A DNA stretch of 64,000 nucleotides, from the NCBI RefSeq assembly GCF_003334355.1, contig NZ_QOWP01000003.1, one strand, 5' to 3'. Of this stretch, positions 44,658 to 47,537 are shown one piece after another; within the stretch, counting starts at the first letter, position 1; each line of letters begins with the position of its first letter. The notes under the pieces were generated by a model that saw only the letters and a program-made list of their open reading frames with translations, was not told the origin of the DNA and made no database searches. The translations under genes were made by a program, and so were the position numbers. Source of the stretch: Escherichia coli (GTDB lineage: Bacteria; Pseudomonadota; Gammaproteobacteria; Enterobacterales; Enterobacteriaceae).

Positions 44658-46007
44658 ATGTCTGAAATTGTTGTCTCCAAATTTGGCGGTACCAGCGTAG
44701 CTGATTTTGACGCCATGAACCGCAGCGCTGATATTGTGCTTTCTGATGCCAACGTGCGTTTAGTTGTCCTCTCGGCTTCTGCTGGTATCACTAATCTGCT
44801 GGTCGCTTTAGCTGAAGGACTGGAACCTGGCGAGCGATTCGAAAAACTCGACGCTATCCGCAACATCCAGTTTGCCATTCTGGAACGTCTGCGTTACCCG
44901 AACGTTATCCGTGAAGAGATTGAACGTCTGCTGGAGAACATTACTGTTCTGGCAGAAGCGGCGGCGCTGGCAACGTCTCCGGCGCTGACAGATGAGCTGG
45001 TCAGCCACGGCGAGCTGATGTCGACCCTGCTGTTTGTTGAGATCCTGCGCGAACGCGATGTTCAGGCACAGTGGTTTGATGTACGTAAAGTGATGCGTAC
45101 CAACGACCGATTTGGTCGTGCAGAGCCAGATATAGCCGCGCTGGCGGAACTGGCCGCGCTGCAGCTGCTCCCACGTCTCAATGAAGGCTTAGTGATCACC
45201 CAGGGATTTATCGGTAGCGAAAATAAAGGTCGTACAACGACGCTTGGCCGTGGAGGCAGCGATTATACGGCAGCCTTGCTGGCGGAGGCTTTACACGCAT
45301 CTCGTGTTGATATCTGGACCGACGTCCCGGGCATCTACACCACCGATCCACGCGTAGTTTCCGCAGCAAAACGCATTGATGAAATCGCGTTTGCCGAAGC
45401 GGCAGAGATGGCAACTTTTGGTGCAAAAGTACTGCATCCGGCAACGTTGCTACCCGCAGTACGCAGCGATATCCCGGTCTTTGTCGGCTCCAGCAAAGAC
45501 CCACGCGCAGGTGGTACGCTGGTGTGCAATAAAACTGAAAATCCGCCGCTGTTCCGCGCTCTGGCGCTTCGTCGCAATCAGACTCTGCTCACTTTGCACA
45601 GCCTGAATATGCTGCATTCTCGCGGTTTCCTCGCGGAAGTTTTCGGCATCCTCGCGCGGCATAATATTTCGGTAGACTTAATCACCACGTCAGAAGTGAG
45701 CGTGGCATTAACCCTTGATACCACCGGTTCAACCTCCACTGGCGATACGTTGCTGACGCAATCTCTGCTGATGGAGCTTTCCGCACTGTGTCGGGTGGAG
45801 GTGGAAGAAGGTCTGGCGCTGGTCGCGTTGATTGGCAATGACCTGTCAAAAGCCTGCGGCGTTGGCAAAGAGGTATTCGGCGTACTGGAACCGTTCAACA
45901 TTCGCATGATTTGTTATGGCGCATCCAGCCATAACCTGTGCTTCCTGGTGCCCGGCGAAGATGCCGAGCAGGTGGTGCAAAAACTGCATAGTAATTTGTT
46001 TGAGTAA
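44658..46007 (+). CDS. lysC: Lysine-sensitive aspartokinase III
   Basis: ORF track 449 aa MSEIVVSKFGGTSVADFDAMNRSADIVLSDANVRLVVLSASAGITNLLVALAEG... Confidence 0.98.
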   Translation: MSEIVVSKFGGTSVADFDAMNRSADIVLSDANVRLVVLSASAGITNLLVALAEGLEPGERFEKLDAIRNIQFAILERLRYPNVIREEIERLLENITVLAEAAALATSPALTDELVSHGELMSTLLFVEILRERDVQAQWFDVRKVMRTNDRFGRAEPDIAALAELAALQLLPRLNEGLVITQGFIGSENKGRTTTLGRGGSDYTAALLAEALHASRVDIWTDVPGIYTTDPRVVSAAKRIDEIAFAEAAEMATFGAKVLHPATLLPAVRSDIPVFVGSSKDPRAGGTLVCNKTENPPLFRALALRRNQTLLTLHSLNMLHSRGFLAEVFGILARHNISVDLITTSEVSVALTLDTTGSTSTGDTLLTQSLLMELSALCRVEVEEGLALVALIGNDLSKACGVGKEVFGVLEPFNIRMICYGASSHNLCFLVPGEDAEQVVQKLHSNLFE

Positions 46008-46259: not shown

Positions 46260-46532
46260 ATGGCACTCCCCCGTATTACCCAAAAAGAGATGACTGAACG
46301 CGAGCAGCGTGAACTTAAAACACTGCTGGATCGGGCGCGGATTGCGCATGGTCGCGTATTGACCAACTCCGAAACCAACAGCATTAAGAAAGATTACATC
46401 GATAAATTAATGGTTGAGCGTGAGGCTGAAGCGAAAAAAGCCCGCCAGTTGAAGAAAAAGCAGGCTTATAAACCGGATCCTGAAGCGTCATTTAGCTGGT
46501 CAGCAAATACGTCGACGCGCGGCAGGCGCTAA
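46260..46532 (+). CDS. yjbD: Uncharacterised protein YjbD (DUF3811)
   Basis: ORF track 90 aa MALPRITQKEMTEREQRELKTLLDRARIAHGRVLTNSETNS... Confidence 0.85.
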   Translation: MALPRITQKEMTEREQRELKTLLDRARIAHGRVLTNSETNSIKKDYIDKLMVEREAEAKKARQLKKKQAYKPDPEASFSWSANTSTRGRR

Positions 46533-46664
46533 TCCACAATCAACGCCTGAGATTTTCACTCGTCAGTGTGAACACAATTTTCCCCTCACCCTAACCCTTT
46601 TCCCGAAGGGGCGAGGGGACTGTCCGGGCACTTTTGGGCCGTTTTCATCAGTCTGAGGCGTTAA

Positions 46665-47537
46665 TCAGCGCCCCTTCTTTTTACGCCCCGGCGAGGTAAA
46701 ACGCTTACCGTTGGACGCCGGGCGACCGCCTTTTTCCGCCGTTTTTTCCATCTTAACGACTGGACGTTTGATGCCCGCTGTTTTCGGTTTGGCCTTCGCT
46801 TTAGGTTTTACCTCGGAAGAGGAATTTTCAATGAGCTTAAAGAGGTCGATTAACTCATCGTCGGTTAAATCGCGCCATTCCCCCAGCGGAATGCCGCTTA
46901 AGCTAACGTTCATGATGCGCGTGCGTTCCAGCTTTTTCACTTCATAGCCGAAATGCTCGCACATGCGCCGGATCTGACGGTTCAGCCCCTGCACCAGGGT
47001 AATGCGGAAGACAAACGGCGCTTCTTTTTTAACTTTGCACTTTTTGGTCACTGTCCCGAGGATTGGCACCCCCGCACTCATGCCGCGAATAAACTCCTCG
47101 GTAATCGGTTTATCGACCGTCACCAGATACTCTTTCTCATGATCATTGCCAGCACGCAGGATCTTATTCACCAGATCGCCGTGATTGGTGAGGAAAATCA
47201 GCCCCTGGGAGTCTTTATCCAGGCGGCCAATCGGGAACACGCGTTTGCTGTGGTTAACGAAATCGACAATGTTATCGCGCTCGCCATCTTCGGTGGTGCT
47301 TACAATACCAACGGGCTTGTTCAGGGCGATAAGTACCAAATCTTCGGCTTCCCGAGGTTCAATCAACTGACCGTTTACTTTCACAACGTCGCCGGGTTTC
47401 ACCTGATCGCCAATGGTGGCTCGCTTGCCATTAAGGAACACATTGCCTTGCTCGATATAGCGATCCGCTTCGCGGCGTGAGCAAATTCCGCTTTCGCTGA
47501 TGTATTTATTTAAACGGACTGATGAGTCGGGCAGCAT
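46665..47537 (-). CDS. rluF: 23S rRNA pseudouridine synthase RluF
   Basis: ORF track 290 aa with S4 domain and RluA-type catalytic core (...[22 protein letters not shown]...). Confidence 0.95.

What the first reader, a model, noticed from the sequence alone, without database searches (positions are those of the whole stretch)
46575..46625. Nested GC-rich hairpin between yjbD and rluF
tcccctcaccctaacccttttcccgaaggggcgagggga forms a 7-bp outer stem (tcccctc/gagggga) enclosing a smaller inner stem. It lies between convergent yjbD and rluF and is not followed by a clear T-run, so it may be a stabilising 3' structure, a protein-binding site or a small repeat-family member rather than a simple terminator.
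Basis: seen in the sequence. Interest (0 to 1): 0.2.

Follow-up and report, generated by a model that had tools for sequence, protein, structure and literature searches.

The report
Decayed BoxC repeat capping yjbD mRNA
The hairpin is a slightly decayed copy of a known E. coli intergenic repeat (BoxC, also called PIT or TMECO), carried on a 132-base insertion that only about a third of E. coli strains have, and published RNA 3'-end mapping shows that yjbD transcripts end right at its base; it is real but largely ordinary.

Summary
The hairpin lies at 46581-46619, between convergent yjbD and rluF, with no T-run after it. Its folding energy alone is only modestly unusual (z about -2).

It is a repeat-family member. 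On the minus strand it reads CCCTCGCCCC-TTC-GGGAAAAGGG-TTA-GGGTGAGGGG. That is the published BoxC/PIT/TMECO motif with two G-to-A changes in the middle block, so it fails the strict consensus and is absent from the published MG1655 lists.

The whole 132-bp spacer (46533-46664) is a derived insertion:
- It is present in 1,770 of 5,426 complete E. coli genomes.
- It is absent from most E. coli and from Salmonella, Klebsiella, Yokenella and Enterobacter, where the two stop codons abut or overlap.
- About 190 genomes carry an allele with the intact motif at the same junctions.
- One genome shows exact loss between the 10-bp flanking direct repeats.

Published Term-seq data place an RNA 3' end at window 46621, 2 nt after the stem. 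A Rho-dependent termination region lies downstream. The hairpin therefore most likely acts as a 3'-exonuclease barrier for yjbD mRNA.

Interest is low to moderate.

The parts
46533..46664 (.). 132-bp strain-variable insertion that makes up the entire yjbD-rluF spacer
   Evidence: Present in 1,770 of 5,426 complete E. coli genomes. O157:H7 and Nissle (EcN) have a 0-bp spacer. Salmonella, Yokenella, Klebsiella and Enterobacter have abutting or overlapping stop codons.
46525..46534 (+). Left flanking direct repeat GGCGCTAATC, containing the yjbD stop codon TAA at 46530-46532
   Evidence: Read from the sequence. It is 9/10 identical to the right copy, 132 bp away.
46657..46666 (+). Right flanking direct repeat GGCGTTAATC, overlapping the rluF stop codon (TCA at 46665-46667)
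   Evidence: One genome (Z1323PEC0010) has exactly GGCGCTAATCAGCGCC, meaning loss of one repeat plus the 122 bp between them.
46581..46619 (+). The reported nested hairpin, on the C-rich strand (yjbD-sense RNA)
   Evidence: The two K-12 mutations lie in its loop, so the intact allele gives the same fold and the same -19.7 kcal/mol.
46583..46617 (-). Degenerate BoxC/PIT/TMECO core. Block 1 is CCCTCGCCC (46609-17). Block 2 is GGAAAAGGG in place of GGGNGAGGG (46595-03). Block 3 is GGGTGAGGG (46583-91).
   Evidence: 2 mismatches to the consensus, 0 expected by chance; the strict regular expression fails here but matches the allele in strain 2013C-4974. Consensus and the 23 listed copies come from PMC4666352.
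46621..46621 (+). Mapped steady-state RNA 3' end (MG1655 4231270, minus strand), 2 nt after the stem
   Evidence: Adams et al. 2021 supp. file 1, LB OD 0.4, mean 42,362.8 reads. The coordinate mapping was verified; the window is identical to MG1655 over 1,701 nt.
46620..46656 (+). 'Tail' shared by long-form family copies (ACTGTCCGGGCAC...CATCAGTCTGA)
   Evidence: Conserved in the fimH-gntP, yihS-yihR, alx-sstT, ppc-argE and flgF-flgG copies. It also aligns with copies in Pseudomonas sp. dw_612.
46562..46575 (+). Left arm GTCAGTGTGAACAC, shared with the ppc-argE copy and resembling the Pseudomonas left arm
   Evidence: BLAST homology to other copies starts at query position 25-30. This is a weak resemblance.
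46542..46552 (+). Left arm AACGCCTGAGA of an inverted repeat; its partner TCTGAGGCGTT lies at 46652-46662 (10 of 11 complementary)
   Evidence: Pairs in the 132-nt fold. It was not found as a conserved feature of other copies.
46657..46682 (+). Terminator-like hairpin GGCGTTAATCAGCGCC followed by CCTTCTTTTT. This is the ancestral stop-codon hairpin, rebuilt at the right junction.
   Evidence: The same hairpin plus T-run is present at empty sites and in Enterobacter and Salmonella. No Term-seq 3' end is listed there.
46582..46604 (-). Potential G-quadruplex GGGAAAAGGGTTAGGGTGAGGGG
   Evidence: This and 46608-46638 (+) are the only two (G3+N1-7)x4 motifs in the 64-kb window.
46800..46800 (+). 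Best-scoring coordinate of a Rho-dependent termination region for yjbD-sense transcripts (MG1655 4231091, minus strand)
   Evidence: Adams et al. 2021 supp. file 2: Rho score 4.27, p = 2.8e-13, measured in 800-nt windows and therefore low resolution.

Best explanation
The hairpin is the core of a mutated copy of the BoxC (also PIT, TMECO or HPG1) intergenic repeat. The copy sits on a 132-bp insertion that entered the hairpin spanning the abutting stop codons of yjbD and rluF, in the lineage leading to K-12-like E. coli.

The 'nested' look comes from the family's three-block design: two tandem CCCTCNCCC-type blocks plus one inverted block. In this copy the outer and inverted blocks pair, and the mutated middle block is left in the loop.

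Functionally, the yjbD-sense RNA hairpin most likely works as a 3'-to-5' exonuclease barrier. In this model yjbD transcripts read through it, are terminated by Rho further downstream inside antisense rluF, and are trimmed back to the base of the stem. That leaves the stable 3' end seen at 46621.

Shown: family identity, the insertion polymorphism, the derived state, and the mapped 3' end.
Inferred: trimming rather than termination, and any effect on yjbD mRNA stability.

Confidence is about 0.95 for identity and origin and about 0.6 for the 3'-end-protecting role.
For: Identity:
- 2 mismatches to the TMECO consensus, 0 expected by chance.
- 82-88% identity over about 80 nt to listed family members at fimH-gntP, yihS-yihR and alx-sstT.
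- The allele at the same junctions in strain 2013C-4974 matches the strict consensus.

Insertion:
- Present in 1,770 of 5,426 genomes.
- Empty site in O157 and EcN.
- Outgroup genera have abutting or overlapping stop codons.
- Flanked by a 9/10 direct repeat of 10 bp, with one exact-loss genome.

3' end:
- Term-seq 3' end 2 nt after the stem.
- No U-tract.
- Stable stem, -19.7 kcal/mol.
- Rho-termination region downstream.
- This is the signature Dar & Sorek 2018 describe for Rho-terminated transcripts protected from PNPase and RNase II (PMC6061677 abstract).
- Other BoxC-type hairpins also carry Term-seq 3' ends at or just after the stem: 3781065+ (lldD), 3959467-, 847200- and 632098+.
Against: - The 3' end is listed in only one of three growth conditions (LB OD 0.4). 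Its read count is about twice the lowest minus-strand value seen in the part of the table read here.
- The Rho call uses 800-nt windows, so it does not show that these particular transcripts pass the hairpin.
- No exonuclease-mutant or half-life data were available.
- Two thirds of E. coli strains and all outgroups examined lack the element, so any role is dispensable and probably incidental.
- Folding energy is only about 2 sd better than shuffles.
Confidence: 0.65

Rival explanations
1. Functionless relic. The element is a decaying selfish or neutral repeat insertion. The hairpin and the 3' end at its base have no consequence for yjbD or rluF expression.
For: - Absent from 3,656 of 5,426 E. 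coli genomes and from all four outgroup genera.
- The core motif is mutated in the K-12 allele.
- The insert diverges at 11 of 132 positions, against 4 of 273 (yjbD) and 12 of 400 (rluF) in the flanks.
- The ancestral stop-codon hairpin plus T-run is still present downstream.
Against: A discrete RNA 3' end does map to the stem base, so the structure has at least a molecular effect on the transcript. This rival differs from the best explanation only in whether that effect matters.
Confidence: 0.2
2. DNA-level non-B structure. The G-rich strand forms an intrastrand triplex or a G-quadruplex that stalls replication or repair, making the locus unstable, as proposed for the family.
For: - Canonical family members form triplexes in vitro and sit in hypervariable loci (PMC4666352).
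- A G4-hairpin-duplex switch has been proposed for the same motif (PMC5100583).
- This locus is an indel polymorphism with a fast-diverging insert.
- The only two G-quadruplex motifs in 64 kb lie in this element.
Against: - The K-12 copy has lost 2 of the G residues in the block that must serve as the central strand of the triplex. Block 1:block 2 Watson-Crick pairs drop from 8 of 9 to 6 of 9 (read from the sequence).
- In vivo DMS footprinting did not detect the triplex even for a canonical copy.
- The K-12 allele is at least 99% identical across 1,579 genomes, so it is stable on that timescale.
Confidence: 0.1
3. Intrinsic (possibly bidirectional) terminator for the convergent yjbD and rluF genes.
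For: A GC-rich hairpin between convergent genes, with an RNA 3' end 2 nt after the stem on the yjbD strand.
Against: - No U-tract on either strand. The stem is followed by CUGUCC on + and AAAAUUG on -.
- The terminator scan does not call it.
- No 3' end is listed for the rluF strand near it.
- Rho-dependent regions exist downstream on both strands.
- PIT elements showed no terminator activity in earlier reporter tests.
Confidence: 0.05
4. Binding site for a specific protein, by analogy with IHF or gyrase binding at REP/BIME elements.
For: Only the strong sequence conservation of the motif across copies and taxa.
Against: The papers read here describe no binding protein. No test was possible with these tools.
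Confidence: 0.03

Closest known systems
BoxC / PIT element / TMECO / HPG1: four names for one E. coli intergenic repeat (Bergler 1992 and Bachellier 1996 as cited; Hoyne and Maher 2000; Holder et al. 2015, PMC4666352; Kaplan et al. 2016, PMC5100583)
   Same: - Same three-block sequence, with the type-A TTA loop and the 'mm' G in block 1.
- Intergenic, with about 80 nt of homology to listed copies.
- Sits in a strain-variable spot.
- Its allele in other strains is a perfect member.
   Different: - Two G-to-A changes in the middle block break the strict TMECO consensus and the HPG1 21-mer.
- It is therefore in neither published MG1655 list.
- Its triplex potential should be reduced.
Protective 3' stem-loops of Rho-terminated transcripts (Dar & Sorek 2018, PMC6061677)
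   Same: A stable stem-loop without a U-tract, a steady-state 3' end immediately downstream, and a Rho-dependent region further on.
   Different: Protection from PNPase or RNase II, and Rho-dependence of this exact transcript, have not been shown. Here the structure was supplied by a repeat insertion rather than evolving in place.
REP/BIME elements acting as mRNA 3' stabilisers
   Same: A GC-rich palindromic intergenic repeat, often between convergent genes, that can define 3' ends. At ppc-argE a BoxC allele and REP alleles occupy the same site.
   Different: The sequence is unrelated and the copy number far lower (about 20-30 copies of this family). No RAYT transposase or binding protein is known for it.
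MITE / REPIN-type miniature mobile elements
   Same: Multicopy, a filled versus empty site polymorphism, a flanking direct repeat at this locus, and a long palindromic unit in Pseudomonas sp. dw_612.
   Different: There are no consistent target-site duplications or ends at three other E. coli loci, and no associated transposase has been identified.

Membership tests
TMECO sensu stricto (Holder et al. 2015) | Matches CCCTCNCCC-N3-6-GGGNGAGGG-N3-GGGNGAGGG | tested here: not met
   The regular expression finds 0 matches in the window on either strand. This copy has 2 mismatches, both in block 2. The allele at the same site in strain 2013C-4974 matches.
BoxC / PIT repeat family (by descent and similarity) | Sequence homology to accepted members beyond the core motif | tested here: met
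   82-88% identity over 77-95 nt to the fimH-gntP (#23), yihS-yihR (#21), alx-sstT (#13) and ppc-argE copies. The fabI-upstream copy (#9) shares the core.
BoxC / PIT repeat family (by descent and similarity) | Intergenic location with multiple copies per genome | tested here: met
   It lies between two CDSs. Related matches occur at a median of 18 places per E. coli genome at E<=10. There is only one copy in this window.
BoxC / PIT repeat family (by descent and similarity) | G-rich strand folds into an intrastrand purine-motif triplex | not testable with these tools
   Read from the sequence only: the central block loses 2 G residues, so block 1:block 2 pairing falls from 8 of 9 to 6 of 9. Nearest-neighbour folding cannot model triplexes.
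HPG1 G-quadruplex group (Kaplan et al. 2016) | At most 1 difference from GGGAGAGGGTTAGGGTGAGGG | tested here: not met
   The copy here is GGGAAAAGGGTTAGGGTGAGGG, which has more than one difference. It still fits the generic (G3+N1-7)x4 pattern.
Protective 3' stem-loop of Rho-terminated transcripts | Energetically stable stem-loop not followed by a U-rich stretch | tested here: met
   -19.7 kcal/mol, followed by CUGUCCGGGCAC.
Protective 3' stem-loop of Rho-terminated transcripts | Steady-state RNA 3' end immediately downstream of the stem | tested here: met
   Published Term-seq 3' end at 46621, 2 nt after the last paired base.
Protective 3' stem-loop of Rho-terminated transcripts | The transcript is Rho-terminated downstream | tested here: inconclusive
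   The best coordinate of the Rho region lies 179 nt downstream (score 4.27), but it is derived from 800-nt windows.
Protective 3' stem-loop of Rho-terminated transcripts | The 3' end depends on PNPase or RNase II trimming | not testable with these tools
   No exonuclease-mutant data could be reached. The Dar & Sorek supplement is not held.
Intrinsic terminator | U-tract within a few nt of a GC-rich stem | tested here: not met
MITE / REPIN | Target-site duplication and defined ends recurring at independent insertions | tested here: inconclusive
   There is a 9/10 direct repeat of 10 bp here. At the ppc-argE, fimH-gntP and yihS-yihR sites the element replaces other sequence without a clean duplication.
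MITE / REPIN | A cognate transposase sharing the ends | not tested
Holder et al. report no association with mobile elements.

The most novel reading that the evidence does not exclude
BoxC/TMECO motifs may not be free-standing structure motifs. They may be the arms of a REPIN- or MITE-like miniature mobile element.

In Pseudomonas sp. dw_612 the unit is a palindrome of about 180-220 bp. A type-A motif and a type-B motif form inverted arms around a conserved centre of about 95 nt. The E. coli long-form copies, including this 132-bp insertion with its flanking direct repeat, would then be half or decayed units of the same element.

On this reading, the hairpins routinely end up defining the 3' ends of Rho-terminated mRNAs, as REP elements do.
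Probability: 0.25. Interest if true: 0.5.

Novelty: new member of a known kind. Interest (0 to 1): 0.25.

Why it matters
For this locus, very little. It explains a K-12 intergenic hairpin as a decayed copy of a repeat first described in 1992. It also shows that K-12's yjbD-rluF spacer is a recent insertion between genes that otherwise touch.

Three points go slightly beyond that:
- Published searches for this family used strict motifs and miss mutated copies such as this one.
- Reporter assays had found no promoter or terminator activity for these elements. Here, Term-seq 3' ends sit at the base of this and at least four other BoxC-type hairpins. That suggests a concrete and testable molecular effect: 3'-end protection of Rho-terminated transcripts.
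- The filled allele, the empty allele and the one exact-loss allele offer a natural isogenic-like series for testing it.

Tried and rejected
- **Rfam.** A search of the region at E<=10 gave only noise, with the best hit an antizyme frameshift element at 18 bits against a gathering threshold of 40. A Pseudomonas copy gave the same.
- **More copies in the window.** None were found with up to 3 mismatches.
- **Simple terminator.** Rejected, because there is no U-tract and the scan does not call it.
- **Donor locus for the insert.** Megablast finds the 132 bp at a single place per genome. An exact 22-mer from its unique left part has no match in 100,044 species-representative genomes.
- **Clean transposition signature.** Filled and empty alleles at ppc-argE, fimH-gntP and yihS-yihR show replacement rather than insertion plus duplication. 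The MITE reading is therefore kept only as the novel case.
- **Plasmid association.** The one 'plasmid' hit examined carries a chromosomal flg operon.
- **Literature.** No paper holds both yjbD and rluF. The locus names are absent from the Holder supplement and the Kaplan main text. The supplements of Dar & Sorek and of the 3'-UTR Term-seq paper are not held.
- **Full tally of BoxC copies with Term-seq ends.** Not completed, because the supplement search shows only two passages per term.

Full report
**Observation**

The window is identical to E. coli K-12 MG1655 over the 1,701 nt checked here. It carries lysC (44658-46007, +), yjbD (46260-46532, +; DUF3811), rluF (46665-47537, -) and pepE.

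The quoted 39-mer lies at 46581-46619.
- a 7-bp outer stem (46581-87 with 46613-19);
- an A/C mismatch;
- a 4-bp inner stem;
- -19.7 kcal/mol on the + strand and -23.0 on the - strand.

Against dinucleotide shuffles this is only modestly unusual. RNA z = -2.0 and -2.5, and DNA z = -1.3 to -2.0. Nothing U-rich follows the stem, and the terminator scan does not call it. Rfam has no family for it.

**What it is**

The window holds no second copy. A sensitive BLAST of the 132-bp spacer against 5,426 complete E. coli genomes, however, finds a median of 18 matching places per genome. The shared part corresponds to window 46578-46657, at 82-88% identity.

The copies fetched lie in the ppc-argE, fimH-gntP, yihS-yihR and alx-sstT spacers and align well. 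The literature identifies the family under four names:
- BoxC: listed as 56 bp and 32 copies in E. coli (PMC2267715);
- PIT elements;
- TMECO: consensus CCCTCNCCC-N3-6-GGGNGAGGG-N3-GGGNGAGGG, with 23 copies tabulated for MG1655 (PMC4666352);
- the G-quadruplex groups HPG1 and HPG2 (PMC5100583).

The fimH-gntP, yihS-yihR, alx-sstT and fabI-upstream copies are entries 23, 21, 12+13 and 9 of the TMECO table. I confirmed entry 9 directly.

On the minus strand the finding reads CCCTCGCCCC-TTC-GGGAAAAGGG-TTA-GGGTGAGGGG. This is the commonest variant, 'type A mm', with two G-to-A changes in the middle block. It has 2 mismatches to the consensus where none would be expected by chance. It fails the strict pattern. 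It is absent from the TMECO table, and the locus is not named in the HPG1/HPG2 paper.

The 'nested' appearance follows from the three-block design. Blocks 1 and 3 pair, and block 2 sits in the loop. The intact allele gives the same yjbD-strand RNA fold and energy.

**The spacer is an insertion**

- Only 1,770 of 5,426 genomes contain the 132 bp. All 5,426 contain the flanks, and in the rest the region is exactly 132 bp shorter.
- In O157:H7 and Nissle (EcN) the yjbD stop TGA is followed directly by the rluF stop TTA, with the annotated CDSs abutting.
- Salmonella, Yokenella and Klebsiella overlap the stops (TTAA). Enterobacter has the same TGATTA as most E. coli. The empty state is therefore ancestral.
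- The insert is bounded by GGCGCTAATC (46525-34) and GGCGTTAATC (46657-66).
- 1,579 genomes carry the K-12 allele at 99% identity or better.
- About 190 genomes carry a second allele at the same junctions (O121 RM8352 and 2013C-4974, for example). Its core matches the strict consensus.
- The two alleles differ at 11 of 132 positions. The flanks differ at 4 of 273 (yjbD) and 12 of 400 (rluF).
- Exactly one genome (Z1323PEC0010, with K-12-type YjbD) has GGCGCTAATCAGCGCC. This is loss of one repeat plus the intervening 122 bp.

How the insertion arose remains unclear. The duplicated TAATC is the reverse complement of the ancestral hairpin loop.

**What it does**

Adams et al. 2021 (PMC7815308) list a curated Term-seq 3' end at MG1655 4231270, minus strand. 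It was found in LB at OD 0.4, with a mean of 42,362.8 reads, and the flanking sequence given is exactly this element. The coordinate maps to window 46621 on the yjbD strand, 2 nt after the last paired base.

The same study's bicyclomycin experiment gives two Rho-dependent termination regions:
- best coordinate 4231091 (-), which is window 46800 (+), score 4.27;
- best coordinate 4231569 (+), which is window 46322 (-), score 3.15.

These use 800-nt windows, so their resolution is low.

Dar & Sorek 2018 describe this pattern for Rho-terminated E. coli transcripts: a stable stem-loop, no U-tract, a precise 3' end just after it, and Rho action downstream. They attribute it to protection from PNPase and RNase II.

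Other BoxC-type hairpins also carry Term-seq ends at or shortly after the stem:
- 3781065+, the lldD primary 3' end, at the equivalent GGGGAC|N position;
- 3959467-;
- 847200-;
- 632098+.

I therefore favour a 3'-exonuclease barrier that fixes the yjbD mRNA end. The role is probably incidental, because most strains lack the element. The ancestral stop-codon hairpin plus T-run survives at 46657-46682, but no 3' end is listed there.

**Rivals**

- Intrinsic terminator: unlikely. There is no U-tract, earlier reporter tests of the family were negative, and there is no end on the rluF strand.
- Triplex or G-quadruplex DNA: proposed for the family. The K-12 copy has lost two G residues in the central block, and even canonical copies gave no in vivo triplex footprint. 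The element does hold the only two G-quadruplex motifs in 64 kb.
- Neutral relic: this remains a serious alternative for biological significance.

**Wider family, seen in passing**

In Pseudomonas sp. dw_612 it is part of a palindromic unit of about 180-220 bp, with type-A and type-B motifs as inverted arms. The first 45 nt or so after motif A align with the E. coli 'tail' at 46620-46656.

At three other E. coli loci the element replaces other sequence without a clean duplication. At ppc-argE it alternates with REP/BIME alleles. A mobile-element reading is therefore possible but unproven.

**Verdict**

This is a real structure that belongs to a known family, as a previously unlisted degenerate copy. 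It has a plausible and partly documented role in defining an RNA 3' end. Interest is low to moderate.

Noticed in passing
window 46582-46604 (-) and 46608-46638 (+): These are the only two canonical G-quadruplex motifs, (G3+N1-7)x4, in the whole 64-kb window, and both lie inside the 132-bp insertion.
   Followed up: partly
window 46525-46534 and 46657-46672; L001, L002, L013-L017: The ancestral site is a hairpin spanning both stop codons: GGCGC-TGATTA-GCGCC followed by a T-run, with TTAA overlap in Salmonella, Klebsiella and Yokenella. Filled alleles carry the loop in reverse-complement form (TAATC) on both sides of the insert. One genome of 5,426 has the 'flipped' empty site.
   Followed up: partly
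L012 398-529 (strain 2013C-4974) against window 46533-46664: The two alleles of the insert differ at 8.3% of positions, while the flanking genes differ at 1.5-3%. The cause could be relaxed constraint, local hypermutation or gene conversion.
   Followed up: no
L005, L018, L019 (ppc-argE spacer): The same breakpoints hold one of three alternatives in different strains: a long BoxC element (285 genomes), one REP, or two REPs forming a BIME.
   Followed up: partly
L039-L068, L139-L141 (Pseudomonas sp. dw_612): More than 30 copies of a palindromic unit of about 180-220 bp. Its arms are a type-A and a type-B motif plus about 20 nt of outer inverted repeat, around a conserved centre of about 95 nt. 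The part after motif A aligns with the E. coli tail. It has no Rfam match and is intergenic in L061.
   Followed up: partly
L024-L143 (GTDB species representatives): An exact 22-nt non-coding motif is shared by Alpha-, Beta-, Gamma- and Deltaproteobacteria, Verrucomicrobia, Chloroflexi-like and archaeal MAGs.
   Followed up: no
MG1655 3781065+, 3959467-, 847200-, 632098+ (Adams et al. 2021, supp. file 1): Other BoxC-type hairpins also have curated Term-seq 3' ends at or within about 10 nt of the stem base, in both orientations. I did not complete a full tally.
   Followed up: partly
L011 2886-2920, minus strand (MG1655 about 1,351,385-1,351,419): The ycjD stop codon and its last codons lie inside a partial BoxC copy, CCCTCTCCC-TGA-AAGAGCGAGGGGGCAGACCGAG.
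   Followed up: no
L004 (strain NIPH17_0036): yjbD is annotated as a truncated pseudogene, rluF is shortened, and a slipin gene replaces lysC upstream. A rearrangement breakpoint therefore lies at this locus.
   Followed up: no
L022 (record NZ_CP074792.1, labelled plasmid p94_0962-1): A 155-kb 'plasmid' record begins with the chromosomal flgC-flgI operon and has a BoxC copy between flgF and flgG. This may be a misassembly or a chromosome fragment.
   Followed up: no
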